From: the human T2T-CHM13v2.0 reference genome, Homo sapiens
Strand: one strand, 5' to 3'
Length of the DNA stretch: 64,000 nucleotides
NCBI RefSeq assembly: GCF_009914755.1
Contig: NC_060941.1
Shown here piece after piece: positions 4,341 to 47,037 of this stretch. The notes under the pieces were generated by a model, which made no database searches, was not told the origin of the DNA, and saw only the letters and a list, made by a program, of their open reading frames with translations. Position numbers and translations under genes: made by a program. The first letter of the stretch is position 1; each line of letters starts with the position of its first letter.

Positions 4341-5708
4341 TTTAAGAAATTTAATGTGGGTACAGTTCTATTAACTAAATAATAATGTGAACTATTATCT
4401 AAGGTTATGAAGGCTAGAATTATCCCATTTTTGCCTAACTTCTCGTACCTGTCCCAAGATCCCACCTTGGACTCACCCTCTGCCTTCAGCTCACGTCTCT
4501 TCAGCTTCCTCCACATGGTCCAGCAAACACACACCTGGGCTGAATGGTAGAGCTGATCGCTCATACACAAAGGTAGACCGGTGGGCAGGGATTTTCAGAC
4601 TTACACAGTCAATGAGTTTTCCTTGGTGTTCTGGAGAGCACCGTTTGAGAAACACTTTGACAGTGAATCTAGGCCTCAAGATCCATCAGCTGCTCTAGCT
4701 TGAATTTTGCTCAAGCTCAGTGAACACCTGCTCTGCCGGGTGCACGTGAAAGGGGCAAGGATGAGAAAGCTGTAGATAAAGAAGACAGGACGCAGGGGGT
4801 CTGTCTAAGCTCTATCCCCTGCCTTCAGCACTGAGGGATGAAATCCAACTCTTAGGGAACGGTGGCCACGTGCTGGGCCAGCCCCAGGCTCTCAGGATCT
4901 GACAGTGGGTGACGCAGAGCCAGGCCTTGCCCCTGGGGAGCTCTCCAGCATACACCTCCCTCTCCCCTCCCAGCGTGCCGCAAAGCAGGCGTCAACGCCA
5001 TTGTTAATGCACGGAGGAGGAACCTGACTGTTAGACCTGGGTTTTCCAGGGTTGCACGGCTTCTGGGAGACGGATGTGACCCTGAGGACAGGGCACAGGC
5101 CAGTGTAATGCCAGGATGGAATGAGCTGTGATCTGTGCTGTATAGAGGCCTAGGCCAAGGTGGGACTGACGGATGACCAGGTCAGCCGGGTCACTGAAAA
5201 CACTCTTGGGTCCTCACCTGCCGGTTCCCAGGAGTCCGGAACTGCCAGGAGAGTGGTGGCAGGTCCCCCATCCTCAGCTGGGTGGGCCTGGATAGAACAG
5301 CAAGGCGAGGGCACATTTCCCTGGCCATTCCCTCCAGGCACAGCCGTGACCTGTTCATTCCAAATTTGTGGAAGTATTTCCACACACACAGAACTGCAAA
5401 TAGCAGTGGACATGGTGAGAGGCGTTTGCACACGGGATAGGCAGGATTTTGGAGGCAGAGCCTCCAGGGCTTGCCGATGGGTTAGCTGCAGGGCTTGAGA
5501 GGGAACGGAGAATCCAGGATGATGTGTTCAAATCGGTCCATTCACCTCTTCCGTTCCACGCCTGTGCTGGGCACTGGGAGAGACAGATGCACACAGGAGC
5601 CCCGGCCGAGGGGAGGTGTGGGGGGAAGCCCAGAGTGTCTGGGCAGGGTAGGAAACCCAGAGCGTCTACTGGGAGCTGAAGGCTTAGGTCCACCTGGGTG
5701 CCGTCCAG

Positions 5709-5813
5709 GTTCTCTGCATGTAGAAGTATAGGCTGAGCTTCCCGGAGGAGGAGCAGCTGCTGTTGCTGGTGACCAGCACATTCAGGAACGGAGACTACTC
5801 TGTCAACAGACAG
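5709..5813 (+). pseudogene. NOS2 exon 15 remnant (FMN-binding domain)
   Basis: After CCGTCCAG| it reads VLCM*KYRLSFPEEEQLLLLVTSTFRNGDYSVNRQ versus iNOS [35 protein letters not shown]. 105 nt, one in-frame stop, donor GT mutated to GG. Confidence 0.88.
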
Positions 5814-6183
5814 GGGGATGACCTGAGGTCTGGATGGTCTAGGGGGTGGTAGGGCCCAGGAGGACCCAGGAAAGGGTCTCGGGGATGCAGAACATCCTAT
5901 GGAGGGCATTTGGGAGTCAGTGCTCAGGCCACTCCGGGTCACGCAGGTCATTTGCCGGCCTCTGTCATAATTATTGCCATATGAGAGTGCCACCTTTCCT
6001 GTGACATAATTCAGCCATTCCTGTGAATGGCCTACCTGTTTATATTTACAACTTCATGTTTAAAGGAAATTTGTATCACTCTCATAAATGGAAAGCCAGC
6101 AAAACATAAATTCAATGAAAACAAAATGAAGTCAATGAACTTTAGCTAGATACTATTCCCTGACCAAGGCCTGCTGGAGGCCG

Positions 6184-21671: not shown

Positions 21672-21964
<293 letters not shown>

Positions 21965-22167: not shown

Positions 22168-22519
<352 letters not shown>

Positions 22520-23569: not shown

Positions 23570-24266
<697 letters not shown>

Positions 24267-24705: not shown

Positions 24706-26679
24706 AATGAGGTGTTATTAAAATGTTTGCAAGAGAAACCCTAGTAATTCCAAGCACATATTTTAGGAATGGTTTCTTGTGTAGAAAATCCTGGAATGTG
24801 AGGCTCTGCTGATTTTTTTAATGCATATTCTCTTCTTATGTATGCGGAATTTTTTTTTTTTTTGAGATAGAGCCTTGCTCTGTTGCCCAGGCTGGAATGC
24901 ACTGGCACGATCTTGGCTCACTGCAACTGCCACCCCCTGGTTTCAAGTGATTCTCCTGCCTCAGCCTCCCGAGTAGATGGAATTACAGGCGTGTGCCACC
25001 GCACTTGGCTAATATTTGTATTTTTAGTAGAGATGGGGTTTCACCATATTGGCCAGGCTGTTCTAGAACTCCTGACCTTGTGATCCACCCACTTCAGCCT
25101 CCCAAAGTGCTGGGATTACAGGCATGAGCCACTGCACCTGGCCTATTTTTGTTTTTACTAATGTTTCAAGAGACCCACTTTATGTACAGAATTCTGGCTA
25201 CAACCTAACAAATGAGTTGCTCTGTTCATCAGTTATAGCCAATTTAAGTAATTATGAAAAGCTCAACAATACTTTTAACTGGCAATGAAAGCGTCAATAG
25301 CTCACATTTACCACCACAACTTAGGATTTCTTGGTAGCTAAATAAAATGCTTCTATTTTGTGGGGGGAAACTGTCACATAAGTTGAAATTCTGCAATGTT
25401 CAATTGATGAAAAGGTCTCTATGTTAAATCAAAGGTATAAATTCCACATCAGTAGTACATGAAAGAGAAAAAAAAAGCCAAAATTAAAGTGATTCATGCC
25501 CACTTCCCTGAGTGAACCTAAGATTTTACTAACAGAGATGCCGTAACTTTGATCATGCACACATCAAACTTGAATTTAAAAACATGCATGCACTCACTCA
25601 TCTTTTATCTCTTATGTAATTAATACTGTAAGATTATATTTTGCCTACGTGCTCTATATTACTAATTTATAGGATTATTACTATTCAGTGTTGTTTACTT
25701 GAAACCATACTGTACTATACACAACTTTTGCATTCCATGCTAACTTTATTTTTTTAATTATTTTTTTTTTATACAGAGTCTCACTCACTCTATTGCCCAG
25801 GCTGGAGTGCAGTGGCACGATCTTGGCTCCTGCAACCTCTGCCTCTCGGGTTCAAGTCATTCTCCTACCTCAGCCTCCCAAGTAGTTGGTACCACAGGTA
25901 CATGCCACCACACCCGGCTAATTTTTGTATTTTTGGTAGAGATGGGGTTTCACCATGTGGGCCAGGCTGGTCTCGAACTCCTGACCTCAAGGTTATAGGC
26001 CTGAGCCACCATGTCCCAGCTCCATGCTAACTTTAGAGCTTATTTCCCATCCCATAAGATACAACACTACTTGTGTTATATAGTGAGCAGTGTGGGGAAG
26101 AAAAGCATAGAATTAAGTTAGTGACAAATCCAGTGAACTCAAAAAGAGGGAAAAAAACACTCCCAAACAATTGTTTTCCCCATATTCTATTCTCCCTAGA
26201 GGTATTCCATACAGGAACGACAAAAGAAAAAAAAGGATACAAAATGAGAAAGATGTTCATGTGACATATAAGTACAGTAATAAAATCAACAAGCATATAT
26301 GGTATTTAAGCAAAATAGTATGTATGCATTGATGGTCATCTGATATAAATCCATCATTTCTGTTGGCCAACATCTAAAACCTTTACTTTTCTGAGGAGAC
26401 AAGCTATAAATCTATACGGATATTTCTACAACGAGAATTCACTATTACATATGAACCAATATAATTTGATGTCAAATATTCACAATTAGGTTGAAAAAAT
26501 CCCCTACTTGGCCGGGCGCAGTGGCTCATGCCTGTAATCCCAGCACTTTGGGAGGCCAAGGCGGGTGGATCATGAGGTCAAGAAATCAAGACCATCCTGG
26601 CCAACATGGTGAAGCCCTGTCTCTACTAAAAATACAAAAATTAACTGGGCGTGGTGGCAGGCGCCTGTAGTCCCAGCTA

Positions 26680-26856
<177 letters not shown>

Positions 26857-27483
26857 TCATGCCTATAATTTTGGCACTTTGGGAAGCCGAGGTGGGAAGA
26901 TAGCTTGAGTCCAGGAGTAAAATAGTGAGACTCTGTCTCTACAAAAAAATAAAAAATTAGCTGGATGGGGCACACACCTGTAGTCCAGGTACTCACGAGG
27001 CTGAAATGGGTGGATCACTTGAGCCTGGGAGGTCAAGGCTGTAGTGAACTGTGATCACACCACTACACCCTACACCCAGCCTGGGCTACAAGGTGAGACC
27101 CTGTCTCAAAAAAAAAAAAAAAAAAAAAAGGTACCAAAAATCTATAGCTGTTTCAGAAATAAAATACATGTAGTTAGTGAGGTTTTTCTCTCCCACTGCT
27201 ATGACTTAATTTTTGGTTGAGATGCTAAGCCAAACATCATTTTAAGTCTGTGGCCCAACCAAAAAAGGGAATCATACTCTCCAAAGAATTGTACATTCCC
27301 ACTCTAATTGCTAAAATAAAATGTTGGATTATGAAAATCAATTTTGTAGGTATCAATAAGTTATAAGAGCATGGCTTATTTAAAAAAAAAAGTGGGCCAG
27401 GTTACCTACATGAGCTGCAAAGCAAGCAAACTGAATTTTCTTATCGAAGAGCCCATCCTCATACTTAAAATTTCCCATGACTA

Positions 27484-27705
<222 letters not shown>

Positions 27706-29505
27706 TTAACTATAATAAAGTATTAGAATAGTCTTAGCAGGCACTATTCTAATAGTGGAGAAATGCAAGTGGAAGAAAAAAATGCAAGTGGAAAGTACTG
27801 AGTCAAATTACATCTTCAAATCTTAAACATGCACTAAAAAAGATTTTAGTATACTGTTATTCCTATTAAAAATGTGAATATATTGGCTGGGCATGGTGGC
27901 TCAGGCCTGTAATCCAGCACTTTGGGAGGCTGAGGCAGGCAGATCATGAGGTCAGGAGTTCAAGACCAGCCTGGCCAATAAAGCGAAACCCCGTCTCTAC
28001 TAAAAATACAAAACATCAGCCGGGCGTGGTGGCGGGCGCCTGTAATCCTAGCTACTCGGGAGGCTGAGGCAGGAGAATTGCTTGAACCTGGGAGGCAGAG
28101 GTTGCCGCAAGCAGAGATCGTGCCACTGCACACCAGCCCAGGTGACGGTGCGAGAGTCTGTCTCAATGAAAAAAAAAAAAAAAAAAGAATATATCGAGCT
28201 CAAAACAAGCTGGAAAAAATGTGAATATCAATTTCCCCTCTCACAAAGCTTCAGTGTGCCTAGTCCACTGGCTAAATCCCTGTTTAGAGATAATTAATTC
28301 AGTTGGCTACTGCAGGTTTGTAATAAACCTGAAAAACTACTGAAGCAGAGTTAAAACATGAATAATACTGGTAAGATGCTCCAGTTAAAGTTTCTTCCCA
28401 CAGCTCATTTCATTCCTTCAGAAATCTAAAGGAGCAAAAATAATTTTCTATTCCGCATGGGTTATAAGTTATATTTCCTTGTGAAAGTATAGTTATCACT
28501 TCAGTTCTAACCATGAGATTTATTTATTTAATTCCTTCTCTCTTTCCCAAAATATCTGGTTAAACTCTTGGGCCAAATGTAAGAAGTAAATAATAATTTA
28601 GAATATCTGACTTAATACTAAAAGATGATGACCACATTGACCTTATAATTCTCTTAGAGCCCAGACTGTGAACCTGCACTCCCTGGAGGAATGGCTGATT
28701 CCAAGTGTGGGGAAAATGTACAAGATAAGCATAGAACACCAGTTTCCTTATTTTGCTCTCTCGTACAACACCAGACAATGTGCTCATGTCAAAAGGACTC
28801 AGAACCCAACATGAAGATGCACCCAGCATTCACTGCACCCAGCATTCAACGAAGGGAAAAAACGAGCACCAATAAAAATAACTGCTAGGTGCGGTGGCTC
28901 ACGCCTATCATCCCAACACTTTGGGAGGCAGAGGCAGGTGGATTGCTTTTGAGCTCAGGATTTGAAGACCAGCCTGGTGAACACGGCAAAACCCCGTCTC
29001 TACCAGAAACACAAAAATTAGCTGGGCATGATGGTGTACCTGTGGTCCCAGCTACTCAAGAGGGTGAGGTGGGAGGATTGCTGGAGGTCGGGACGTCAAG
29101 CCTGCAGTGGGCAGCGATCATACCACTGCACTACAGCTTGGGTGACAGAGTTAAGACCCTGCCTCAAAACAATAAATGAATAAATAAAAATAAAATAAAA
29201 ATAACTGCGATGAAAGGAAACACAAATATGTTAAAACGTGTAAGTTCATAATATACTAAAAAAGAAAAAAACACACACAAAGTTCATTGGTCAATTTTGG
29301 AAGATGCTAGGGAACTAATTCATTATTTTGAAAACTAGGAAAGAATCAAACATACATCCTGCCTTTTCTGTATGAACTGTACCTTGGGTAACTAACTGAT
29401 CAAAGAGTTTCTCTTTATGAAAGAATTCCAGCTAACAAAGAAAGAAGAAATAACAGTTAGAATAAAACCATTTCACAAACACCTGATGAAACTACAAAAG
29501 TAGGC

Positions 29506-29672
29506 CAGAGTTTCTCAACCTCAGGGCTACTGACATTTTAGGCCTATTAATACTTTGCGTTAGGGGGCTGTGCTGTGCTGTGCTGACTCTTACCCCTGAA
29601 GGTACCTATAGCATTCCCTCTCCCAAGCTGTGACAATCAGTGTGTCTCCAGACATTGCCAAATTACCCTGGT
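29506..29672. mobile_element. MER20 DNA transposon fragment
   Basis: TTTCTCAACC...CTACTGACATTT...TGTCTCCAGACATTGCCAAAT. Confidence 0.7.
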
Positions 29673-30561
29673 AGTGAAATGCTGACACAGGCAGTGACCA
29701 CTAACATCACTAAAAAAACACACATACGCACACACAAGTACACATTATGCCTCCTGATCAAAGCATATGCGATACTGAGAGTGTAATCTGAATCAGATCA
29801 ACCACCTAAATTTAACTACCAGTTTTTGGAAATTTGGGGAACAGATGAACATGGTCAATGACACTCTGGGGATAATATCAGCAAAATCAAAATTTGAGAA
29901 TTCTACAGGACAAATGACCCCGTTTCTTCAGTAAATCACGAGGGGAATCTATAAACGAAAAGAGACCTAAGAGACATAGTAACCAAACTACATACAGACC
30001 TTGATTAAATCCTTACAAACAGGAGAAAAAAAAAAAAGAATGGAACAACAACAAAAAAAAAATTAGGTGGGGCAACACAGGGAGACCTCATCTCTAGAAA
30101 AATTCAAAAAATTGGTTGTGGTGATGCACCCCTGTGGTCCCAGCTATATGGGAGGATCCCTTGAGCCTGGGAAGATGAGGCTGCCATGAGCCACTATCAT
30201 GCCGCTGCACTCCAGCCTGGGCAACAGAGAAAGACCCTATCTCAAAAAAAAAAAAAGAGAAAAAAAAAACTGGGGAAACTGTCAACTTCTTAGGTGTGAT
30301 GATGGGATGACAGTTATGTTTAAAGAAGATGATCTAATTATTTTTAAGCTGGGCAGTAGGTGTATGACAGTTCTCCTCCTTACAATTGTTTGTTGTTTTT
30401 TAAAGTGGGTCACATTATGGGGCATGACCAAAAAATAATCACCATCATCATCCTCCTCCTTCTCCACCTACAGCCCAAGGAATGGAAAAAGAAACTGTTT
30501 TCTCAGATTCTGAGGTGGCAGAAAGACAATAACACACTAACTCATTTACTCATAAACATAT

Positions 30562-31034
30562 TGTTATGGATTGAATCGTGTCCCTTACCCACCCCCCAGA
30601 AAATTTCGTATGTTGAAACTCTAACCTCTAGTTCCTCAGAATGTGACCTTATTTGGAAAGGGTTATTGCAGATGTAATTAGTGAAGATGAGGTCCTACTG
30701 GAGTAGAGAGGAACCCTAATCCAATATGCCTGGTATCCTTATAAAAAGGGGAAATTTGTCCACAGATATGCACACAGGTAGAACACCATGTGAACATGAA
30801 GGCAGAGATCCAGGTGATGCACCTACAAGCCAAAGTATGCCAAAGATGACCAGCAAACCACCAGAAGCCAGGGGAGAGGCATGGAACATAAGGTTTCTCA
30901 CAGTTGTCGAAGAAACCAACTCTAACAACGTGATCTAGAACTTCTAGTCTCCAGATCTATGAGATAATAAATTTCTGTTGTCTAAGCCACCCAGTTTGTG
31001 GTACTTCGTTGCAGCAAGCCTAGCAAACTAATGC
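30562..31034. mobile_element. MLT1-type MaLR LTR
   Basis: TGTTATGGATTGAAT...CTCAGAATGTGACCTTATTTGGAAA...AATAAATTTCTGTTGTCTAAGCCACCCAGTTTGTGGTAC. Confidence 0.85.
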
Positions 31035-34895: not shown

Positions 34896-37800
34896 GTAGG
34901 TTCTATACTAACAATTAACAAGTGTACTTCAATAAATTTAAACATTCTCAGGAATAGTTGACTTTGTTTCTTTTTTTCTTAGACATTTCATATTATTTTC
35001 CTTATTAAATATAACCAAAAATCCCACAGAAATTAACTGAGGAGCCTCTAAATATCAACAAAATTATCACTTGATAGACTAGAATTAAACAAGCAAGTGG
35101 TTCCAAGAAATGGCACGAGTGTATTAATCATAAAATAAAATTTCTACATGAAACATTCAGCCATTCTAGACCATTTCTGTCTGTGCAGACTCATCTTTTC
35201 CTGTTCTTTGCAAAGCCCAGCTAGAGCAAGCAAGTTCTTCCCAATAGGTTTTTCCCATCTCTGGTTGCTTGGCTGGCTGGGCTTCCTCTACAAACCCCCT
35301 TCCTTTCCCCTAAGCAGGGCCCGGTGTCCCCATCCCGCGGAGTTGACCTCATGAGGGCATCTGACCAGGAGTAGCTATTCCTGGTGCTATTGTCATTGTC
35401 CTGTTTCATGTGTGAACATGGCTGGCTCTACAGAGATTTGGCGGGTAGCAAGGAGGTTTCTTTTTGAATCTTCTTTTGGAAGTCAGACTTGATGAGGATC
35501 TTATGCCCACTTTTTCCTAGCTCTGTGGTGTCAGGCAAAGTCTGTTTCTGCAAATGGGGGTTAAGAATTCCTACCTCACAGCAGTCTTTTGATAATAAGA
35601 TCTTAAGTGTAAATTATTCCACTAGAAATTGCACAGTCACTTTGGTCTTCATCCTGGAGGTCCACTGACAAGCCTCATGCAAACCTGTGGCCCTGTTCAT
35701 AAAGTGTTTTGATCCATACTTTCAAATGGCCTCAGGAAGACCTTTTATAAAGTAAAAATGTTAGGCAGCCACATGATATCCATTGACCCAGTGAGGCTGT
35801 TTTACTGCATATAAGAGGTTTGACCCGGCATTTTGGGGGGCCGAGACAGGCAGATCACTTGAGGCCAGGAGCTGGAGACCTGCCTGGCCAACATGGAGAA
35901 ACCCCATCTCTATTAAAAATACCAAAAAAATTAGGTGGGCATGGTGGCACATGCCTGTAATCCCAGCTACTTGGGAGACTGAGGCACAAGAATCGCTTGA
36001 ACCCGGGAGTCAGAGGTTGCAGTGAGCCAAGCCGAGATGGCGCCACTGCACTCCAGCCTGGGCAACAGAGTGAGACTCTGTCTCAGGGGAAAAAAAAGGG
36101 TGAGGGGAGGGTTTGAAAAAATAGTAGCATGTAGTTATGTTTCTACAATATTTAATATATATAAGGATTTACCAACCTCTTGCATTAGCTGCTATCCCCT
36201 ACAGCAGTTGCTGTAGGAAAAAAACATCAAGTTCTGAGCTCCTACTGTTTGCCAGGCATATTCTGAGATGATCACGTTGAAATCTCAGAGTTACCCTGCA
36301 GAGTAGTCAGGGTATCACTGCCTGACAGATGAAGAAGCTGAGGCTTCCAGCAGTTAAATGACTTACCCCAGGCCACATAGAAAATGAGTGGGAGAGCCCA
36401 GGTCTGTCTGTGAGGTATAATGAAATTAGCATAAACCCTCCACATTGGCGCCACTTGCATAAATTAACATACATTCTCTCACAGAAAGTATTTTATTGGG
36501 CATAACAGTTTGTATCATTTACCGTTTAACATTAGCCGTGGATCTTCCCACATCACATGACTATGCCTCATTCTTTTTGGATAATATGATTACTATTGAA
36601 TGGATTTACTATCATTCACTTAATCAATACTCCTTTTGATGGCCATTTTAATTGTCTATTTTTTCCTTTTGCACAGATTGGTGTAATAAACCTGATTTTA
36701 TAGTAATATTTTTGTCTGCCTGTGAAAATGTTTGCTGGACAATAAATTCCTAGGAGTCAAATAAGGTCAAAGATTATAAATACAGTATTTATTTTCATAA
36801 ATATTACCAAGTCAGCCACAAATGTTTAAATTACTAATGGTTTCAGATTATTGTATTTAATGAGTAAACACTTTTATAGGGTTTACTTTTATGAACACTT
36901 TTATTTGCCAGATATCATTCTAAGTCCTTTACAAAATTAACTTTTTAAATTTGTAATATAACCCTGAGATGTATATTAGGATTATCCCCATTCTACAGAT
37001 AAGAACACTGAGAAGTTAATTAACTTGCCACATATCTAGGAAGTGACAAGGCTAGTTGCACAGCCAGGCAGTCTGGCTCCTGAGTCCACATTTTAGACAA
37101 CACTATACCTCCTGGTTCTTTTGAGGCATTACTGCTGGAACTATCCTAATACTCATAAATAAACATTTCTTTTGGGGAGGGCCAAATAAAATTTTAAACA
37201 GAAAAGTTTTCACCAACTGTCAAGCTCATAAAGTTGTACGTTATACACTTTTTTCATGATGCCCACAGATAATTTATTAATGATATCATCTATTTTAAAA
37301 GACGTATGTAAAACCCAACCCTTAAGAAAGGATTCCTATCACTGTTCCCACAGGCACCCTCCTCAGTCTTATACCTTTCCATTCCACCCCCCAAAACAAA
37401 TCATTCAGCATATTTATTTCATACTGTAATAGAGGAAGTAGCTTCTTTTTAGATTTTCTTAGATTATTAACATTGATCATACAAACATGGAATAGAAATT
37501 CCTTATGTTTTATCTGGATTTAAGGTGCTACATAATGGAATCTATTTCTATCAAGCCATACACATTGGAGATAATGAAATCACTTGTGTTCTAGCCTAAA
37601 CGTTATGGGAATTTCAGAACTGCAACATAACAGATAATCCTTGGACGAAAACTAAATCTCTCCTCTGGTCAGGCATCTATGTGCATCAGTGAAGAGAAGA
37701 CGGGGACTGTGGAAGGGAAAACAGTGAGTCAGGAAGGACTGTGGCCACATCTGTTCCCCGGACCCTCAAGTAGTTAAATCCTGACCTCCTCTACCCCAGA

Positions 37801-38372
37801 CTGTCCTGGGGAATGGCCAACACTGGCTTTTCACAACTGTGTGTTACCAGAAATGCAACAGAAACCCAGCTGAATCCCCAGGGTTTCCCTTCCGCCCTTC
37901 TCAATGGAAAGATCTGTCCCAGGACCATTTATTCCAACATTTTCAATTATGAGAAATCTGGGAAGATAAAGTTATTTTCACATTTCTCAAGAAATACATA
38001 CTTATTCATACTCATTACAGGAAAGTCAGAATCTACAGAAAACCAAGAAGATTTTTAAAAATCCATGATACCACCATCAAAAGAGCCACACTTAGTATGT
38101 TGGTCCACAGGTTTCCTAGCACCCTTTTCTGTTGGTGTATGCACAAAATACACAATCACATTCTGTCTACATTTTACAATTTGCCATTTTTTGATTAACA
38201 CTATATATTGACCAATTTTTAAGACCTGCAACATATGTCGACAACATTATTTCAAAATAATATATTTATAAATAAACGCACACACAAACTGTCTGTCTTA
38301 TATACAACACGTCTTACTTTCTAATTCTCCACTCTGGAAGATTTAGGTTTTCCTAACTTTTTAATATACTCA

Positions 38373-38593
38373 CCAGGAATCAGTAAACTTTTTTTATAAA
38401 AGGCCAAAGGGTAGATATTTTAAACTCTGCAGGCCATAGGTTTCTGTTGCAACACTCAACTCTGCTGTTGCAGGGAAAGAAGCCATACACAATTTGTAAA
38501 TGAATGGGCATGACTGTGTTCTGATAAACTTTACAAAAACAGGTGGTGGACTAGATGCAGCCTGCTCCTCTGGACATGGCTTACCAGCCCCTG
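38373..38593. mobile_element. MER58A-like hAT element
   Basis: CAGGAATCAGTAAACTTTT...AAAGGCCA...CTGTTGCAACACTCAACTCTGC...CCCCTG. Confidence 0.75.
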
Positions 38594-39039
38594 ACATATA
38601 CCACTACAGAGGATGCTGTTAGAATGAAATCTCTTTACACATCTCTGATCATCTCCTTAGGACTAATTGCTAGACATGACATCATGGTAGCTGTGGGTCA
38701 AAGGGCATGCACGCTCTGGGATGTACATTGCCAGATTGCTCATGATCAGCCTTTCTCATGTCAAAATGTTTTGTGACCACCAGAAGGCTGGTTCTGCTTT
38801 TATTATCCATTGACTGAGGAGTAGAAATGACATGGCATGTATGCAGGATATTTAACCATCGTATAGATAATCCTTGTGCACAAGTGCATTCTATATTCTT
38901 TCCCAATAGGTCTACATCTGCCAGAGTTGAAATAAAATAAAACAAAACAAACCTATTTAGCACCTTCTGTGTAGCAGGTCCATTCATGTATGTTGTTGTA
39001 TTTCATTCTCAGAATTCTTATGACCTAGGCATTTTAAAC

Positions 39040-40446
39040 ATTTTTTTAAAAATATTGAGTTGACAAGGATTGTGTATATTTAATGCATACAATGTGATGA
39101 TTTCATATATGTATATATTGTGTACTAATTATCACAATCAAATTTATTACATCCATTACCACCTATGCTGTACATTAAATCTCCAGAATTTGTTCATCTT
39201 ATAACTGAAAGTTTACACCCTTTGATTAATAGCTTCCCATTTTCCCCACCTCCAGCCCTTGGCAACCACCATTCTACTATCTGTTTTTATGAGTTTGACT
39301 CTCTTAGATCCCACATATAAGTGAGATCATACAAAACTTGTCTTTCGGTGTCTGGCTTATTTCACTTAGCGTAATGTCCTCCAGGTTTATCCAGGACAGG
39401 AGTTTCTTCTTTTGAATGGCTAATAGTCCATTGTTTATATGTATTTTATTTATCCATTCATCTGTTGCTGGACACTTAGGCTGTTTCCATATCTTGGGTA
39501 TTGTGAATAGTGTTGTAATAAACATGGGGCGCAGATCTCTCTTCAAGGTTCTAACCTGATTGCTGAATCGTATGGTAGTTCTGCTTCTAATTTTTTGAGG
39601 AACCTCCATACTGTTTTCTGTAAAGGTTATACCACTTTACATTCCAACCAACAGTGTACAAGGGTTCTCTTTCCTCTATGCTTTCGCCAACACTTGTTAT
39701 CTCTTGTCGTTTTTTTATAAGAGCCATCCTATCCTATGAGGCAATATCTCACTGTGGTTTTGATTTGCATTTCTCTGATGATTAGTGGTGTTGAGCACCT
39801 TTTCATATGCTGGCTGGCCATTTGTATATCTTCCTTGGGGAAAAAAGTCCATTGGGGTCCTTTGCCTATTTTTAATTGCGTTATTCATGTATTTATTAAT
39901 TTTTGCTATTGAATTGTGTGAATTCCTTATATTTTTTCAAATAACCCCTTATCAAATATATGGGTCGCAAATATTTTCTTCCATCCCGTAGGTTGCCTTT
40001 TCATTTTGTCATGGTTTCCTTTGCTGTGTAAAACCTTTTAAGATTGATGTAGTCCCATTTATTTATTTTCACTTTTGTTGCCTGTGCTTTGGTGTTACAT
40101 CAAAAAAAATATTGCCAATTATGACCAATGTCGAGGAGATTTTTCCCTATGTTTACTTCCAGGATTTACATGGTTTCAGATATTACATTTAAATCTTTAA
40201 TCCACTTTGAGCTAATTTTCTGTATATGATGTAAAACAAGTGTGCAATTTCATTCTTTTTCATGCACTTTCCCCAACACCATTCATTGAAGAGAGTTTCC
40301 TTTCTACATTGTGCCTTTTTTTTTTTTACAGTACAGTGAAAGCAAGTCTATTAAGAAAGTAAAGGAATAAAAGAATCTACATTGTATATCCTTGATGGCC
40401 TTGTCAAAGATCTGTTGACCATATATGCACGGGGTTATTTCTGGGT
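39040..40446 (-). mobile_element. L1MA-type 3' fragment
   Basis: ORF 39304-39609 contains [27 protein letters not shown] (L1 ORF2 C-terminus). Confidence 0.85.
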
Positions 40447-40461
40447 GAGCTTGGCATTTTT

Positions 40462-40768
<307 letters not shown>

Positions 40769-40862
40769 GAGCTTGGCATTTTTATCTACCTCATTCTACC
40801 GATGAGGAGGCCGAGTCTCAGAGAGTTCACAGACCTGCCTAAGGTCACTCAGCTAGAGGTGA

Positions 40863-42036
40863 TACAACCAGGGTTTGAACTGAGATCTGCCAAGCTTCTG
40901 AGTTTATTCTTTTTCCCCCACACCAAGGATCCTCAATTCTGCCTTACTGACATCAGGATCCGGTCAATTCTTTGTGATGGGGGCTGTCCTGCACCTGGCA
41001 GGATGTTTAGCAGCTTCTCTGGCCTCCACCCACTGGATGCCAGGGGAATGCAGAAGAGGCTTGTTCATTCTCCCATTTAATCCTCAGGACAATATCTGAC
41101 ATAAATGTTACGTCTTTTATTTTATAAATGAAGAAAATGAGACTCAGAAAGGTTTAAGTGAGTTACTTAAGAACACACAGACAGCAAAGGTAGAACTGGA
41201 AACCGAACACAGGTGTCCACATGGGACAACAAAAAAGTTCACGTTCCATCTTCTTTTGAGTCTCTCATTTCAATAATTACCATTGTGTGGATACGAGCTG
41301 AAGTACAGGAAACCTGGGGCTGAACTCTCCTCCCATCAGGCCTAGGAGCCCCAGACCAGAACCCCAGCCCAAGGTCTCCCAGTCAGGCCCGCTGGCGTGA
41401 GCTGGCATCTACACTAGCATGGTTTCCCAAAGCTGCAGGGATGCCAGTCTCGCCGCTGATGAAGAAAATGAAGGGCATTTGCTTCTCATGCAGGCTGTCG
41501 GGATTTAACACAGATTCCTTTTCTTGCTCTCTTCTCCCATAGCACAAAACTGGGTGGTCCATCCCCCTCCCAGTGTCCCAAGGCTTTGTTGCGTGTTCTC
41601 TTTAATTTCTCCCACTCTTGTGGTGTACCCTACCCTCATCTCCCTGGCAACCTTTCTGCTGTATCCTCTCGACACCTGGATCACAAGAACACTTGTGAGA
41701 CCCCTTAACAAGTTACATCCCAAATTATCATTCCCCTTTGTCCTCAGCCAGTGCTCAGGTCCAACTTGCTCTCCTGGGGTGACTTTCTTTCCTGCCCAAT
41801 ATGGTTTCATCATCTGTAAATTGGGGATAATTAAAGTCTTGATCCTGATATTTGACTCTCAAAGCAGAAGGAGCAAGCTCAGCCAAGTCACTTCAACAAG
41901 AGGAGAAGTTCCTTGTGAACCAAAAGGGCACTGGTCACAAGGGCCGCTCCTTCTTCTGTCAGGCCTCTCCAGCACGCCCTTGGCTCAGCCAAAGAAGAGA
42001 CTCAGGCTGTGCTTCTGCACTGTTGGGATAACATAG
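40863..42036 (+). repeat. ~1.17 kb direct duplication, copy A'
   Basis: Colinear with 6184-7353. Confidence 0.93.
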
Positions 42037-42137
42037 GCCTCTTCCATGTGGTTCCACACCAGGAACATGGGGACAATCAGACCTCTCCCAGTGTGGGCAT
42101 AAGGATACAAGATCATGTCAATATTGACATTCATAAT

Positions 42138-42440
42138 GGCTGGGCGCAGTGGCACACGCCTGTAATGCCAGCACTTTGGGAGGCTGAGGTGGGCAGATTG
42201 CTTGAACCCCAGAGTTCGAAACCAGCCTGGGCGACTTGGCAAAACCAGTCTCTACTGAAAATACAAACAATTGGCTGGGCTTGGTGGCGCACACCTGTAG
42301 TCTCAGCTACTTGGGAGGCTGAGGTGGGAGGATTGCTCAAACCCAGGGAGGTTGAGGCTTCAGTGAGCTATGATGGCACTGCTGTACTCCAACCTGGGCA
42401 ACAGAGTGAGGCCCTGTCTCAAAACAAAAACAAAGACAAA
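42138..42440 (+). mobile_element. AluJ-like element
   Basis: Diverged Alu dimer with A-rich tail. Confidence 0.85.
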
Positions 42441-42656
42441 ACAACATTCATAATAGTAGCAATAGCTACTATGTGCCAAGCCCAGGCACCTCTTTGAGTC
42501 TTTGCTGGCACTCTATCAGGTAAGCGTGCTTAGAAGTTACACGAAGCACACGGCTCAGTGTTTGGCCCATGGTAAGGGCCTAAAAAGGGATAGCCCCAGT
42601 GGTGGGGATGCTGCTGCTGCTGACCATTAACCCCAGTCTGCTCCACCTTCTTCCAG

Positions 42657-42789
42657 GCAGTCTGTGAGATGTTTCATGTCCGAGGCAAACAGCACATTCA
42701 GATCCCCAAGCTCTACACCTCCAGTGTGACCAGGCACCTGCACCACTTCAGGCTCATGCAGGACTCACAGCCTTTGGACCTCAGCTAAA
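42657..42789 (+). pseudogene. NOS2 exon 18 remnant
   Basis: After TTCTTCCAG| it reads [43 protein letters not shown] versus i[47 protein letters not shown]. Acceptor intact, donor lost. Confidence 0.92.
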
Positions 42790-43443
42790 GGACTTGCTTC
42801 TCTTCAGCACACGGGGCTTGTTTGTGTTGGGGTCTGAGCCCTGAGCCCATGGTCAAGGAGACCCCCAGGTCTTTCTGAACAGAGACAGCTGGCCTGGGGG
42901 CCTCCCTCTCACTGCGTGCAAGAGGCTGTTAGGGTGCAAGACTCAAGGCGCTGAGGGAGGCTGTTTCAGGAGGGAGCCCCAGGAGGGTGGTGGAGACAGA
43001 AGGGGGCAGCATCTGCCGAGGCCCTACTGTGTGCCTGGCACCGTGTGGGGTTTCTGGCCCATATGGGCTAAGTGACCCTGCACACTCCTCTTAGGAGAGA
43101 GGCTCAGATGGAGAAATTGCAGTTCAGGAAGGTGAAGCAAGCTGCTAGCCTGTGGCCATGTTGGGATCTGGGCCTCAGCCTTCCAGCCACGAAGGCAGCC
43201 AAGTGTCATGAAGAAGGCATCACAGAGGCAATTCCAGGCTGTAGTGGTGAACTTTCCACTCTGCATCCCCGGGTGCTGTGCCCTGTGCCCTGTCTAAGGT
43301 AGCCCTGTGGGTTTCTATATGTTTAAATTGTCCCCAGCATCAATGATGCTCTCCTGTGGATCCCAAGCCATGGAGATGTCCTGGGACTTTTCATTTTTAG
43401 GTACCTAAATTGAATTTCCCAACACACAGAAGCAAGACAGCCG

Positions 43444-43699
43444 CCCTAACAGACTCTTGCATGCAGTGAGAGGGAGGCCGCCAGGCCAGCTGTCTCTGTT
43501 CAGAAAGACCTGGGGGTCTCCTTGACCATGCGCTCAGGGCTCAGACCCCAACACAAACAAGCCCCGTGTGCTGAAGAGAAGCAGGTCCCTTAGCTGAGGT
43601 CCAAAGGCTGTGGGTCCTGCATGAGCCTGAAGTGGTGCACGTCCCTGGTCACATTGGAGGTGGAGAGCTTGGGGATCTGAATGTGCTGTTTGCCTTGGA
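43444..43699 (-). pseudogene. Inverted duplicate of most of the NOS2 exon 18 remnant plus downstream intron
   Basis: Reverse complement of 42679-42934, 12 mismatches in 256 bp by manual count and no indels. Reads [34 protein letters not shown]. Confidence 0.93.
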
Positions 43700-43878
43700 T
43701 CTTTATTTGTGATTCAGAAACAGTGGAATAAAAGGAAAGGAAAGAAAACCTGAATGGCCACCTCAGCAGGATGCTCCAAGGGTAGTGTCCAGGTGGCACT
43801 GACTCAGATATGTGGGGGCTTCCCCCACCCATGCTCAAGAGCCACTTTGCCATTTCACCATCTCTCTGTCCTCCACAC

Positions 43879-43955
43879 CCCTCAGCAGCAAGCACAACAA
43901 GAATGTGTTCACCATGAAGCTCAAATCTCAGCAGAATCTAGAGTCTGAAATCCAA
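43879..43955 (+). pseudogene. NOS2 exon 19 remnant
   Basis: [20 protein letters not shown] versus iNOS LSSMHAKNVFTMRLKSRQNL. Acceptor AG mutated to AC, small deletion near the 3' end, donor GTAAG retained at 43956. Confidence 0.88.
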
Positions 43956-44838
43956 GTAAGGGAAAGTGTAGAGCTTCTTGGATGATGCCCTGTCAATTTT
44001 ATTTTAACGAATGAAAGACCAGAAGAAGTCAGTCTTGAAAGGAGAGGACAGGAGCATCTGCTGGCATTAGCAGCCGTGCCATCGTAGGACCGACTCACCT
44101 GGACCCGCGGCCACCTGTGCTTTTACATCTAGTCTTGGTTAACCATGGGCCACTTTTCCAGCTTGGAAACTAAGCATATGCTCCACTTCCTCTCCTTCCT
44201 CATTGAACTCTTTCACTAAAAGAACAGTGCAAGAGAGACTTAAACTGTTTGCCTCATTCTTAAGACCTTTCAGGAAAAGTGTTGGCAGGGAAGGAAATCT
44301 CCCAGCTCTGGGAAACAGTCTTGTGGATTATCTGCTGGTTTCATTGATCTGTGCTGTCCTCCCTGCATTCATTAGGAAAACTGGCCTTGGTTCAAATAAG
44401 AACAGGATTTGTCCTGGTGACAGAGAAAGGTTTCTTCTGATGTCCATATATCTCCGAGGGGGATGCTTTCTCCAGGCAGAGGCTGTGGCCAAGCGATCGG
44501 GGGGCTCAGAGGGCTGCTGGGAAGGGGTGGGCCCCTCTCTCCCCAGAGGGAAACTCCTGGGGACCTCTCGAGCACCCCTGCCCATCCTTTAAACATAAAT
44601 TCATAAATACAAACAAGTAGGCCATTCACAGAAATATATAAAATATGTCATAGGACGGGTGGCACTCTCATATGGCAATAATTATGACAGGGGCCGGCAA
44701 ATGACCTGCGTGACCCGGAGTGGCCTGAGCACTGACTCCCAAATGCCCTCCATAGGATGTTCTGCATCCCCGAGACCCTTTCCTGGGTCCTCCTGGGCCC
44801 TACCACCCCCTAGACCATCCAGACCTCAGGTCATCCCC

Positions 44839-44943
44839 CTGTCTGTTGACAGAGTAGTCTCCGTTCCTGAATGTGCTGGTCACCAGCAACAGCAGCTGCT
44901 CCTCCTCCGGGAAGCTCAGCCTATACTTCTACATGCAGAGAAC
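44839..44943 (-). pseudogene. NOS2 exon 15 remnant, mirror copy in the right arm
   Basis: Reverse complement of 5709-5813. Confidence 0.88.
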
Positions 44944-46320
44944 CTGGACGGCACCCAGGTGGACCTAAGCCTTCAGCTCCCAGTAGACGCTCTGGGTTTC
45001 CTACCCTGCCCAGACACTCTGGGCTTCCCCCCACACCTCCCCTCGGCCGGGGCTCCTGTGTGCATCTGTCTCTCCCAGTGCCCAGCACAGGCGTGGAACG
45101 GAAGAGGTGAATGGACCGATTTGAACACATCATCCTGGATTCTCCGTTCCCTCTCAAGCCCTGCAGCTAACCCATCGGCAAGCCCTGGAGGCTCTGCCTC
45201 CAAAATCCTGCCTATCCCATGTGCAAACGCCTCTCACCATGTCCACTGCTATTTGCAGTTCTGTGTGTGTGGAAATACTTCCACAAATTTGGAATGAACA
45301 GGTCACGGCTGTGCCTGGAGGGAATGGCCAGGGAAATGTGCCCTCGCCTTGCTGTTCTATCCAGGCCCACCCAGCTGAGGATGGGGGACCTGCCACCACT
45401 CTCCTGGCAGTTCCGGACTCCTGGGAACCGGCAGGTGAGGACCCAAGAGTGTTTTCAGTGACCCGGCTGACCTGGTCATCCGTCAGTCCCACCTTGGCCT
45501 AGGCCTCTATACAGCACAGATCACAGCTCATTCCATCCTGGCATTACACTGGCCTGTGCCCTGTCCTCAGGGTCACATCCGTCTCCCAGAAGCCGTGCAA
45601 CCCTGGAAAACCCAGGTCTAACAGTCAGGTTCCTCCTCCGTGCATTAACAATGGCGTTGACGCCTGCTTTGCGGCACGCTGGGAGGGGAGAGGGAGGTGT
45701 ATGCTGGAGAGCTCCCCAGGGGCAAGGCCTGGCTCTGCGTCACCCACTGTCAGATCCTGAGAGCCTGGGGCTGGCCCAGCACGTGGCCACCGTTCCCTAA
45801 GAGTTGGATTTCATCCCTCAGTGCTGAAGGCAGGGGATAGAGCTTAGACAGACCCCCTGCGTCCTGTCTTCTTTATCTACAGCTTTCTCATCCTTGCCCC
45901 TTTCACGTGCACCCGGCAGAGCAGGTGTTCACTGAGCTTGAGCAAAATTCAAGCTAGAGCAGCTGATGGATCTTGAGGCCTAGATTCACTGTCAAAGTGT
46001 TTCTCAAACGGTGCTCTCCAGAACACCAAGGAAAACTCATTGACTGTGTAAGTCTGAAAATCCCTGCCCACCGGTCTACCTTTGTGTATGAGCGATCAGC
46101 TCTACCATTCAGCCCAGGTGTGTGTTTGCTGGACCATGTGGAGGAAGCTGAAGAGACGTGAGCTGAAGGCAGAGGGTGAGTCCAAGGTGGGATCTTGGGA
46201 CAGGTACGAGAAGTTAGGCAAAAATGGGATAATTCTAGCCTTCATAACCTTAGATAATAGTTCACATTATTATTTAGTTAATAGAACTGTACCCACATTA
46301 AATTTCTTAAATTTTTTTAA

Positions 46321-46503
<183 letters not shown>

Positions 46504-46740
46504 TAGGTTTCCCAGGCTGGTCTCAGACTTCTAGACTCAAGTGAACCTGAACCTCCCGCCTCGACCTCTCAAATTGCTGGGATTACAGGTGTGAGCCACC
46601 ACACCCGGCCTAAATTTCTTATGTGCCATGGGACTGCAAAACATCATTATTAGGGGCAGCTGGATGGAAGGTATAGGAGGATACTATAGTGCCTTTTCAA
46701 TATTTCTGTCTAAAATCTAAAATCATTTCAACAGGAAACA

Positions 46741-46746
46741 TTTATT
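46741..46746 (-). terminator. Polyadenylation signal of right TBC1D3 copy
   Basis: TTTATT on + (AATAAA on -), the mirror of 3906-3911. Confidence 0.8.
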
Positions 46747-47037
46747 TCAAAACATGAAGGTGGTTATCCTTCCATGAGTTTGAAGTACAAAGGCAGGCTC
46801 ACGGTGTCGTCAGAATTCAGAACGATGGTCGTGGGGCTGGGGGTGCTGGGAGGGGCTGGGCATGGTTGGCTTTGTGATCTGGGGTCTGGTGTGTTCCATC
46901 TCTGAATCTCTCTCGAGCTGCACTCTTTCTTAATACATTTTCATAAGTTTAACCAAAAATAAAACGAGGATGCGAAGCTTGCTTGGGTTGTTAAGCCTAG
47001 GGAAATTATCCAGCCATGAGCCCTGGCCCAGATGCTT

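What the first reader, a model, noticed from the sequence alone, without database searches (positions are those of the whole stretch)
42657..44943. Internally inverted NOS2 pseudogene directly downstream of TBC1D3: a candidate anti-NOS2 RNA module
Seen: four iNOS reductase-domain exon remnants within 2.3 kb in mixed orientation. Exon 18 is on + (42657-42789), an inverted exon 18 copy on - (in 43444-43699), exon 19 on + (43879-43955) and exon 15 on - (44839-44943). The module starts about 1.8 kb past the poly(A) signal of the complete TBC1D3 copy. Any transcript crossing it, on either strand, carries both NOS2-sense and NOS2-antisense sequence. Established (from memory): NOS gene duplication followed by internal inversion produced trans-acting antisense RNAs in Lymnaea, and a human chr17 'anti-NOS2A' RNA of similar origin has been reported. 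I cannot tell whether this is that locus or a paralog. Inference: read-through from the TBC1D3/NPEPPSP1 unit could tie TBC1D3 expression and copy number to NOS2-antisense RNA output.
Basis: partly seen in the sequence, partly recalled or inferred. Interest (0 to 1): 0.85.

Follow-up and report, generated by a model that had tools for sequence, protein, structure and literature searches.

The report
NOS2 fragment riding the TBC1D3 duplicon
A scrambled, intron-containing piece of the iNOS gene sits just past this TBC1D3 gene and is copied along with most TBC1D3 copies, so it looks like a sister copy of the already published anti-NOS2A locus, not a new kind of element.

Summary
Window 42035-46077 is a 4-kb unprocessed (intron plus exon) mosaic of NOS2. 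It holds exon 18 (+), a 257-bp inverted copy of exon 18/intron 18 (-), exon 19 (+) and exon 15 (-), at 86-93% identity to NOS2. It is not unique. The whole mosaic lies 643-649 bp beyond TBC1D3, E, I, H, F, B and TBC1D3P2. The exon-15 block alone flanks TBC1D3D, K, G and TBC1D3P1. Two reviews place the published 1.9-kb anti-NOS2A RNA at 17q23.2. The only inverted NOS2 mosaic I found in 17q23 is the TBC1D3P2 copy, which is 98.2% identical to this one. This window therefore most likely holds a 17q12 paralog of that known locus. The read-through idea remains untested. No RefSeq transcript enters any full mosaic. The exon remnants are no better kept than the introns, and the reported expression trends run in opposite directions. 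Two things looked new in the searches I could run: anti-NOS2A-type sequence is multicopy and tied to TBC1D3 copy number, and each full copy carries a 256-bp, 95% hairpin.

The parts
42035..43438 (+). Block A: NOS2 intron 17 (3' part, including a shared Alu at 42133-42448), exon 18 and intron 18 (5' part). NOS2-sense on the + strand.
   Evidence: 88.8% over 1407 columns to chr17:28708460-28709858. K2P 0.115 to NOS2.
42657..42790 (+). Exon 18 remnant. 92% identical to NOS2 mRNA, longest perfect run 48 nt. A 1-nt insertion creates TAA and the donor GT is lost.
43443..43699 (-). Block B: inverted duplicate of exon 18 positions 23-133 (43589-43699) plus 145 bp of intron 18. It is inserted into intron 18 of the mosaic.
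   Evidence: 93.4% to NOS2. NOS2P1 is contiguous across this insertion. B shares 6 derived substitutions with arm A.
42679..42934 (.). Left arm of the 256-nt inverted repeat. Its partner is 43444-43699, with 509 nt between the arms.
   Evidence: 95% complementary. MFE -710 kcal/mol with one long stem; arm duplex -534 to -545 kcal/mol against -160 for shuffles.
43723..44582 (+). Block C: NOS2 intron 18 (3' part), exon 19 remnant (43879-43955; acceptor AG lost, 2-bp deletion) and intron 19 (5' part).
   Evidence: 88.4%; exon 19 is 84.6% over 78 nt.
44585..46077 (-). Block D: NOS2 intron 14, exon 15 remnant (44839-44943, 82% identical, in-frame TAG) and intron 15. NOS2-sense on the TBC1D3 strand. 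It is part of the TBC1D3 core flank.
   Evidence: 85.9%; present beside all 11 full-length TBC1D3 copies.
4575..6175 (+). Second D block in the window, downstream of TBC1D3D (type II flank). Its NOS2 homology runs 108 bp further into intron 15 and then abuts non-NOS2 sequence X. There is no A-B-C here.
   Evidence: 86.3% over 1623 columns to NOS2 28713568-28711954..
40852..42037 (.). Sequence X: a non-NOS2 duplicon that bounds block A. It is also present at 6184-7353 next to the type II D block.
   Evidence: it has a further copy, continuing into window 35639-40769, at chr17:60965203-60975218.
46741..46746 (-). TBC1D3 poly(A) hexamer (AATAAA on the - strand), 18 nt before the annotated 3' end at 46723.
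   Evidence: Conserved in 7 of 7 copies.

Best explanation
This is an old, unprocessed and rearranged fragment of the NOS2 gene. It covers introns 14-15 with exon 15, and introns 17-19 with exons 18 and 19.

Shown: it became part of the 3' flank of the TBC1D3 segmental-duplication unit and has been copied with it.

Inferred from cytoband and uniqueness: the copy in this window is a 17q12 paralog of the published anti-NOS2A locus, which is the TBC1D3P2-linked copy at 17q23.2.

Inferred: the DNA is mainly a passenger of TBC1D3 duplication and is under no detectable selection to stay complementary to NOS2.

Inferred, and not tested here: if it acts at all, it would act as proposed for anti-NOS2A. 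An unspliced polyadenylated RNA from the mosaic would pair in trans with NOS2 mRNA made 10.3 Mb away.
- On the TBC1D3 strand (window -), the free antisense piece is exon 19 (78 nt, 84.6%).
- On the opposite strand (window +), it is exon 15 (100 nt, 82%).
- On either strand, the exon-18 antisense copy would first pair in cis with its own sense copy in a 256-bp hairpin.

Because seven near-identical copies exist in this assembly, any such RNA and any assay for it would sum over copies and scale with TBC1D3 copy number.
For: - Structure.
- Unprocessed and disabled: introns are retained. There is a TAA in exon 18 and a TAG in exon 15, and the exon 18 donor and exon 19 acceptor are lost.
- Linked to TBC1D3: 7 full mosaics lie 643-649 bp from TBC1D3, E, I, H, F, B and P2. 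Four D-only flanks lie beside TBC1D3D, K, G and P1. The D query gave 14 of 14 candidates scored: 11 TBC1D3-linked, NOS2, NOS2P1 and a 133-bp piece in USP6.
- Paralog of anti-NOS2A: reviews give ~1.9 kb, intronless, polyadenylated, 17q23.2, ~80% antisense homology. The exon 18 query gave 16 of 16 candidates scored: NOS2, NOS2P1 and seven mosaics with two hits each. The only one in 17q23 is the TBC1D3P2 copy. TBC1D3P2 is the distal SD of the 17q23.1-q23.2 deletion. NOS2P1 keeps the NOS2 orientation, so it has no inversion. This copy is 98.2% identical to the P2 copy over 6 kb, with 78 differences in the 4043-bp mosaic.
- Age: K2P to NOS2 is 0.115-0.144. D was already joined to TBC1D3 when USP6 formed.
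- Passenger status: exon 19 (84.6%) and exon 15 (82%) are less like NOS2 than their own flanking introns (89.1% and 87.1% by ungapped count; 88.4% and 85.9% by BLASTN; exon values). There is no CpG island, no Rfam family and no RefSeq transcript over any full mosaic.
- Pairing potential: duplex energies of -116 to -261 kcal/mol against -38 to -78 for shuffles.
Against: - I could not read the primary anti-NOS2A paper. The cytoband and RNA properties come from three reviews. The cDNA was never aligned, so its strand, its exact extent and even its copy of origin are unknown.
- A 2008 assembly may have lacked the 17q12 copies, so the cloned RNA could in fact come from a 17q12 copy such as this one.
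- Matches in closed regions of the reference are not shown, and the exon 15 query missed known 82% copies. The copy lists are therefore lower bounds.
- Against pure passenger status: among the seven copies the two hairpin arms have 4 variable columns in 512, against 188 in 5555 elsewhere (binomial p 1.2e-4, chosen post hoc).
- Published reciprocal expression with NOS2 is compatible with function.
Confidence: 0.72

Rival explanations
1. Transcription that fails to stop at the TBC1D3 poly(A) site runs on the - strand through D, C, B and A. The NPEPPSP1-driven TBC1D3 of this window would then export NOS2-antisense RNA in proportion to TBC1D3 expression and copy number.
For: - The geometry fits: the mosaic starts 646 bp downstream on the same strand.
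- This TBC1D3 is the copy fused to NPEPPSP1. The preprint reports that the fusion makes up 56% (116/206) of TBC1D3 transcripts in neurospheres (passages).
- Read-through past a TBC1D3 3' end is annotated at TBC1D3P1-DHX40P1.
- That preprint excluded single-exon reads, so unspliced tails would not have been counted.
Against: - TBC1D3 has a canonical AATAAA 18 nt before its 3' end.
- None of the 45 RefSeq TBC1D3-family transcripts enters a full mosaic.
- A read-through RNA meets further - strand AATAAA hexamers at 44003 (before the exon 19 antisense piece) and 43707 (before the hairpin is complete).
- The reported trends are opposite. Anti-NOS2A falls from hESC to neurospheres, while the fusion rises from iPSC to neurons.
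- The published RNA is described as a 1.9-kb intronless unit, not a TBC1D3 tail.
Confidence: 0.1
2. The 256-bp inverted repeat is the active part. Once transcribed on either strand it folds into a long double-stranded hairpin. The hairpin is either diced into small RNAs, some perfectly matching NOS2 exon 18, or edited and sensed as dsRNA. This would resemble pseudogene hairpin endo-siRNA loci described in mouse oocytes (recalled, not checked).
For: - The arms are 95% complementary with a 509-nt loop, and the fold is dominated by one stem.
- There are 37 (arm A side) and 12 (arm B side) 21-mers identical to NOS2 mRNA.
- The arms are the least variable stretch among the seven copies.
- A + strand AATAAA sits 28 nt after arm B and is kept in 7 of 7 copies.
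Against: - No small-RNA or editing data were available.
- The same stretch is also slow-evolving between NOS2 and NOS2P1, where no hairpin exists (94.9% against 91.3% for block A). Low variation may therefore be a local rate effect.
- The variation test was chosen after seeing the data.
- The 12 arm mismatches show no compensatory pattern.
- Long hairpins are rarely diced in human somatic cells (general knowledge).
Confidence: 0.05
3. The fragment matters as DNA, not as RNA. The NOS2-derived flank is simply the edge of the TBC1D3 duplicon, where rearrangement junctions accumulate.
For: - Three different junctions lie in or at block D: D|C at 44583/44585; D|X in type II copies at NOS2 28711954; and the USP6 TBC1D3/USP32 breakpoint 133 bp into D.
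- TBC1D3 copies flank large chromosome 17 rearrangements and the 17q23 microdeletion.
Against: Junctions are expected at the edge of any duplicon by definition, so the clustering may be an ascertainment effect. No breakpoint data from haplotypes were examined. This reading gives NOS2 sequence no special role.
Confidence: 0.12

Closest known systems
Human anti-NOS2A locus and RNA (Korneev et al. 2008, RNA 14:2030). Primary paper not readable here; known to me through passages of reviews PMC5603141, PMC3098824 and PMC4469312.
   Same: Both are NOS2-derived sequence on chromosome 17 with an internal inversion, and both carry antisense homology of roughly 80-90% to NOS2 mRNA. The only such mosaic in 17q23 is 98.2% identical to this one.
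   Different: This copy lies in the 17q12 TBC1D3 cluster 2, next to the NPEPPSP1-driven TBC1D3, not at 17q23.2. Whether it is transcribed is unknown. The link to TBC1D3 and the multicopy state did not appear in any paper found.
Lymnaea pseudo-NOS / antiNOS transcripts (Korneev et al. 1999; seen only as a reference entry, content recalled).
   Same: A NOS gene duplicate with an internal inversion gives an RNA carrying a stretch antisense to the parent mRNA, encoded in trans.
   Different: It is in a different phylum and arose independently. Regulation of the parent gene was shown experimentally there (recalled). Nothing of the kind was tested for this copy.
NOS2P1-NOS2P4, the annotated NOS2 pseudogenes on chromosome 17.
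   Same: These too are unprocessed duplicates of the 3' half of NOS2. NOS2P1 covers the same exons and is about as diverged from NOS2 (K2P 0.09-0.11).
   Different: NOS2P1 keeps the parental order and orientation. NOS2P2 and NOS2P3 cover later exons. NOS2P3 RNA is reported as a sense-strand miR-939-5p sponge, not as an antisense. None of these is attached to a TBC1D3 3' end.
LOC100420853, 'nitric oxide synthase 2, inducible pseudogene' (RefSeq).
   Same: It is the same block A in the TBC1D3E paralog, at chr17:38925651-38926523. That corresponds to window 42551-43423.
   Different: It is annotated at one copy only, as a plain pseudogene. It does not include blocks B, C and D. Nothing is annotated in this window.
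Pseudogene-derived hairpin endo-siRNA loci of mouse oocytes
   Same: An inverted duplication of gene-derived sequence is able to fold into a long dsRNA that carries parent-gene exon sequence.
   Different: No small RNAs have been shown here. It is in human, and only 111 nt of each 256-nt arm is exonic.

Membership tests
anti-NOS2A locus (Korneev 2008) | NOS2-derived genomic sequence containing an internal inversion relative to NOS2. | tested here: met
   Blocks A and C are NOS2-sense on +. Blocks B and D are NOS2-sense on -.
anti-NOS2A locus (Korneev 2008) | Map position 17q23.2. | tested here: not met
   The window is chr17:38998001-39062000, in the 17q12 TBC1D3 cluster. The 17q23 copy is at chr17:63129946-63133990 beside TBC1D3P2. 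This copy is therefore a paralog, not the locus itself.
anti-NOS2A locus (Korneev 2008) | Antisense homology of about 80% to NOS2 mRNA. | tested here: met
   Identities are 82.0% (exon 15), 84.6% (exon 19), 91.9% and 92.1% (exon 18 copies). Which of these is the published antisense region is unknown.
anti-NOS2A locus (Korneev 2008) | Gives a ~1.9-kb intronless polyadenylated RNA that varies reciprocally with NOS2 mRNA. | not testable with these tools
   No RNA data were available. Poly(A) hexamers that could end such an RNA lie at 43727 and 46297 (+) and at 44003 and 43707 (-). All are kept in 7 of 7 copies.
Unprocessed (duplicated) pseudogene fragment | Introns of the parent gene are retained in colinear order. 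| tested here: met
   Each block aligns continuously through intron-exon-intron.
Unprocessed (duplicated) pseudogene fragment | The reading frame or splice signals are disabled. | tested here: met
   There is a 1-nt insertion and TAA in exon 18, and its donor GT is lost. The exon 19 acceptor AG is lost and there is a 2-bp deletion. Exon 15 has a TAG at codon 5.
TBC1D3 segmental-duplication unit | Present at a fixed distance from the gene in its paralogs. | tested here: met
   Block D lies 463-649 bp from the annotated 3' end of 11 of 11 full-length copies (9 coding genes, P1 and P2): 643-649 bp in ten of them and 463 bp at TBC1D3P1, whose annotated gene end differs. The full mosaic is present at 7 of these 11.
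Hairpin endo-siRNA / long dsRNA locus | A long, near-perfect inverted repeat within one transcription unit. | tested here: inconclusive
   The repeat exists (256 nt, 95%, 509-nt loop). No transcription unit spanning it is known.
Hairpin endo-siRNA / long dsRNA locus | Small RNAs or A-to-I editing map to the arms. | not testable with these tools
cis-natural antisense transcript of NOS2 | Overlaps the NOS2 gene on the opposite strand. | tested here: not met
   NOS2 is at chr17:28698170-28741926, 10.3 Mb from the mosaic. Any action would be in trans.

The most novel reading that the evidence does not exclude
The TBC1D3 duplicon carries a conserved NOS2 exon-18 hairpin, plus free exon-15 and exon-19 antisense pieces. 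Their RNA output scales with TBC1D3 copy number, which the preprint abstract gives as 3-39 per haplotype. In this window that output would be driven by the human-specific NPEPPSP1-TBC1D3 unit. Human TBC1D3 expansion would then also dose a trans-acting repressor or dsRNA source aimed at iNOS in neural progenitors.
Probability: 0.05. Interest if true: 0.8.

Novelty: new member of a known kind. Interest (0 to 1): 0.38.

Why it matters
Anti-NOS2A appears in lncRNA catalogues and review tables, and 43 papers in the held library mention it. In the review passages I read it is treated as a single locus. In this complete assembly, sequence of that kind exists in at least seven near-identical copies (98.2-99.9%), each welded to a TBC1D3 gene, and TBC1D3 copy number is highly variable between people. 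Primers or probes for anti-NOS2A may therefore report the sum of several copies and be confounded by TBC1D3 copy number. The copy of origin of the published RNA is also open. For people working on TBC1D3 duplications, the NOS2-derived flank is a handy old marker. It shows that the flank was already in place when USP6 formed, and it separates two flank types (with and without A-B-C). It does not by itself show any regulation of NOS2.

Tried and rejected
- Reading the primary paper (Korneev 2008) by PMC id and by DOI: not held. A further search for papers giving exon-level detail found only the review already seen. Other citing papers gave no location or primers.
- Pfam on the open parts of the exon 18 remnants and on true NOS2 exon 18: no domain match. 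The only hit was a sub-threshold DUF at E about 0.1 for both. The 'reductase domain' label therefore rests on position in the mRNA (codons about 569-749, from the exon table) and on general knowledge, not on a domain hit.
- Rfam at E <= 1: only Alu-derived sub-threshold matches (SRP, mir-1268, mir-3135), with nothing at gathering score.
- ORF list: 12 mechanical ORFs of 80-212 aa. None was followed up, because the exon remnants are broken.
- CpG-island promoter: none. The highest CpG o/e within the mosaic is 0.48.
- NOS2 exon 15 query: it found only NOS2 and the TBC1D3P1 copy (2 of 2 candidates) and missed the ten known 82% copies. Blanks from that tool at this divergence therefore mean little.
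- Simple deletion as the origin of the D-only flanks: rejected. Their NOS2 homology runs 108 bp further than in the full mosaic, and X has the opposite orientation relative to TBC1D3.
- X as NOS2-derived: rejected. It belongs to another duplicon with a copy at chr17:60.965 Mb.
- Literature for a TBC1D3-NOS2 link. The search 'TBC1D3' + 'NOS2' listed 22 papers; judged from titles and abstract starts only, none is about this. No paper holds two of anti-NOS2A / TBC1D3 / LOC100420853. 'NOS2' occurs 0 times in the main texts of Guitart 2024 and the two 2026 preprints.
- Non-human primates could not be examined with these tools.
Full report
**1. What is in the sequence**

I compared window 38000-47000 with the NOS2 gene region of the same assembly (chr17:28697000-28743000, fetched). 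Apart from Alu matches, four blocks align:
- Block A, 42035-43438, matches NOS2 28708460-28709858 (intron 17, exon 18, intron 18). Identity is 88.8% and NOS2-sense is on the + strand.
- Block B, 43443-43699, matches 28708963-28709219 (part of exon 18 plus intron 18) in the opposite orientation at 93.4%.
- Block C, 43723-44582, matches 28707281-28708147 (intron 18, exon 19, intron 19) at 88.4%, sense on +.
- Block D, 44585-46077, matches 28712061-28713568 (intron 15, exon 15, intron 14) at 85.9%, sense on -.

I used the 27-exon table of NM_000625.4. The exon remnants fall at 42657-42790 (exon 18), 43589-43699 (exon 18 positions 23-133, inverted), 43879-43955 (exon 19) and 44839-44943 (exon 15). 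The element is a 4043-bp intron-containing mosaic, not just four exon scraps. It begins 646 bp beyond the TBC1D3 3' end.

**2. State of the remnants**

Identity to a NOS2 mRNA assembled from the reference exons:

| Remnant | Identity | Aligned length |
|---|---|---|
| Exon 18, block A | 92.1% | 139 nt |
| Exon 18, block B | 91.9% | 111 nt |
| Exon 19 | 84.6% | 78 nt |
| Exon 15 | 82.0% | 100 nt |

- The longest perfect runs are 48, 32, 13 and 10 nt.
- Exon 18 in A has a 1-nt insertion that creates TAA and has lost its donor GT. Exon 19 has lost its acceptor AG and has a 2-bp deletion. Exon 15 has an in-frame TAG.
- Exons 19 and 15 are less similar to NOS2 than the intron-derived DNA around them: 89.1% and 87.1% by the ungapped counts, or 88.4% and 85.9% by BLASTN. 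This is the opposite of what selection for complementarity would leave.
- No Pfam domain is detectable in the short open pieces, nor in true exon 18. No Rfam family reaches threshold. There is no CpG island.

**3. The hairpin**

- Arms 42679-42934 and 43444-43699 are 256 nt long, 95% complementary and 509 nt apart.
- The 1061-nt stretch folds into one long stem at -710 kcal/mol, with no shuffle control at that length.
- The two arms alone give -534 to -545 kcal/mol, against -160 ± 9 for shuffles.
- NOS2P1 is contiguous across the site, so B is an insertion specific to this lineage.
- The arms share 6 substitutions that are absent from NOS2 and NOS2P1, and they differ from each other at 12 sites. 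B was therefore copied from A after the fragment left NOS2, and long ago.
- In any RNA spanning both arms, the exon-18 antisense copy would pair in cis. The 95% arm match beats the 92% match to NOS2 mRNA.

**4. It is part of the TBC1D3 duplicon**

A whole-genome search with the mosaic and with D alone (14 of 14 candidates scored) was combined with the annotation.
- Seven full mosaics lie 643-649 bp from the 3' ends of TBC1D3, TBC1D3E, I, H, F, B and TBC1D3P2.
- Four D-only flanks lie beside TBC1D3D (window 4575-6067), K, G and TBC1D3P1.
- Over 6 kb, the other six full copies are 99.90, 99.78, 99.75, 99.27, 98.87 and 98.24% identical to this one.
- RefSeq annotates block A of the TBC1D3E copy as LOC100420853, 'nitric oxide synthase 2, inducible pseudogene'. 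It annotates nothing in this window.
- These lists are lower bounds, because matches in closed regions are hidden.

**5. Two flank types and origin**

- In the D-only (type II) flanks, NOS2 homology runs 108 bp further into intron 15 (window 4575-6175 matches NOS2 28713568-28711954). It then meets sequence X (6184-7353).
- In the full (type I) flank, X (40852-42037) adjoins block A instead, in the opposite orientation relative to TBC1D3.
- X and the DNA beyond it (window 35639-40769) belong to another duplicon with a copy at chr17:60965203-60975218.
- Read along the + strand, the window gives: TBC1D3D, then D (NOS2-sense), then 35.9 kb of other DNA, then A-B-C (NOS2-sense), then inverted D, then inverted TBC1D3.
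- The same convergent pairing, one type I and one type II flank 35.9 kb apart, occurs at G/H and at E/K.
- The sense/antisense junction at 44583/44585 can therefore be read in two ways. It may be an inversion inside a once-continuous NOS2 fragment that lost exons 16-17. Or it may be the joint where an inverted TBC1D3+D unit was placed against the end of C. I cannot choose between these readings.

**6. Age**

- K2P to NOS2 is 0.115 (A), 0.120 (C) and 0.144 (D). NOS2 to NOS2P1 is 0.09-0.11.
- Taking human-macaque divergence as about 6.5% (recalled) and 25 My (the calibration quoted), the fragment left NOS2 on the order of 40-60 My ago. That is early in simians, the group to which TBC1D3 is confined. 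Duplicated DNA may evolve faster, so this estimate is rough.
- A 133-bp piece of D sits in the USP6 intron between the TBC1D3-derived and USP32-derived exons. It ends a 3.3-kb stretch colinear with window 49231-45945 (92.0%), and it also matches NOS2 intron 14. D was therefore already fused to the TBC1D3 flank when USP6 formed.

**7. Relation to anti-NOS2A**

I could not read Korneev et al. 2008. What I have comes from passages of reviews:
- The RNA is about 1.9 kb, intronless, polyadenylated and at 17q23.2 (PMC3098824 and PMC4469312).
- The locus arose by duplication followed by internal inversion, has about 80% antisense homology, and its RNA is high in hESC and lower in neurospheres, opposite to NOS2 (PMC5603141).

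A query with NOS2 exon 18 found 16 of 16 scored candidates: NOS2, NOS2P1 and the seven mosaics, each hit twice. The only one in 17q23 is the TBC1D3P2 copy. TBC1D3P2 is described as the distal duplication flanking the 17q23.1-q23.2 microdeletion. NOS2P1 has no inversion. The published locus is therefore most likely the TBC1D3P2 mosaic, and this window holds a paralog that differs at 78 of 4043 positions.

All candidate poly(A) hexamers are kept in 7 of 7 copies: + strand 43727 and 46297, - strand 44003 and 43707. Four 1.9-kb unspliced RNAs are conceivable, and I cannot say which is the published one.

**8. The read-through idea**

In favour:
- This TBC1D3 is the NPEPPSP1-linked copy. The fusion transcript made up 56% (116/206) of TBC1D3 transcripts in neurospheres and rose from iPSC to neurons (passages of PMC12871316).
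- That study dropped single-exon reads.
- A read-through is annotated at TBC1D3P1-DHX40P1, where D is intronic.

Against:
- The TBC1D3 poly(A) signal is canonical.
- None of the 45 RefSeq TBC1D3-family transcripts enters a full mosaic.
- Two further - strand hexamers lie before the hairpin is complete.
- The expression trend is opposite to that reported for anti-NOS2A.
- The other 2026 preprint reports no Iso-Seq evidence of expression for TBC1D3P1-P7. That concerns the pseudogenes, not the mosaic.

The idea is untested, and I rate it at 0.1.

**9. A loose end**

Among the seven copies, the two arms show 4 variable columns in 512, against 188 in 5555 elsewhere (binomial p 1.2e-4). Arm B is the least variable 256-bp window in the alignment. 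The test was chosen after looking at the data, and indel columns inflate the background. The same stretch is also slow between NOS2 and NOS2P1 (94.9% against 91.3% for block A). This keeps the hairpin reading alive at low probability.

**10. Verdict**

The feature is real and was precisely observed. It is an old NOS2 gene fragment that travels with TBC1D3, and it is most likely a sister copy of the known anti-NOS2A locus. The link to TBC1D3, the copy number and the hairpin did not turn up in the papers I could search. No evidence obtained here shows that this copy is transcribed or regulates NOS2.

Noticed in passing
L024 (chr17:5031000-5036500), positions matching window 49231-45945; D piece at chr17:5034186-5034318: The USP6 intron between its TBC1D3-derived and USP32-derived exons ends its TBC1D3 homology 133 bp inside NOS2-derived block D. 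The breakpoint of this chimeric gene therefore lies in old NOS2 intron-14 sequence.
   Followed up: yes
window 4575-7353 and 40852-46077: There are two kinds of TBC1D3 3' flank. Type I is X-A-B-C-D. Type II is a D that is 108 bp longer, followed by X in the other orientation. Convergent gene pairs D/TBC1D3, E/K and G/H each combine one of each type, 35.9 kb apart.
   Followed up: partly
window 35639-42037; L022/L023 (chr17:60965203-60975218): The DNA flanking block A is a separate duplicon. It has an 89-94% copy in 17q23 between WFDC21P and an AP1S2 pseudogene, about 90 kb from TBC1D3P1.
   Followed up: partly
window 42679-42934 and 43444-43699: The hairpin arms are the least variable part of a 6-kb alignment of the seven copies: 4 of 512 columns against 188 of 5555. 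This is unexplained. It is partly matched by slow change of the same stretch between NOS2 and NOS2P1.
   Followed up: partly
NOS2 intron 18, chr17:28708170-28708430 (L008): NOS2 has an Alu here that is absent from both NOS2P1 and the mosaic. It was therefore inserted after both duplications. Block B sits at the corresponding place in the mosaic.
   Followed up: no
chr17:63133456-63133956 (TBC1D3P2 copy; equals window 45545-46045): RefSeq marks an 'H3K4me1 hESC enhancer' inside block D of the 17q23.2 copy only. hESC is the cell type in which anti-NOS2A was reported to be high.
   Followed up: no
window 18288-30761 (-) and equivalents: Each 17q12 type I flank has an uncharacterised lncRNA gene about 11.1-11.9 kb beyond the mosaic. 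It lies on the TBC1D3 strand at the five minus-strand copies, this window included, and on the opposite strand at the inverted TBC1D3E copy. Its relation to TBC1D3 transcription is unknown.
   Followed up: no
chr17:18.3-18.5, 20.4-20.5 and 28.4-28.6 Mb: The NOS2P2, NOS2P3 and NOS2P1 pseudogenes each lie within about 100-230 kb of a TBC1D3 pseudogene fragment (TBC1D3P4, P3, P5). This may only reflect shared duplication hubs.
   Followed up: no
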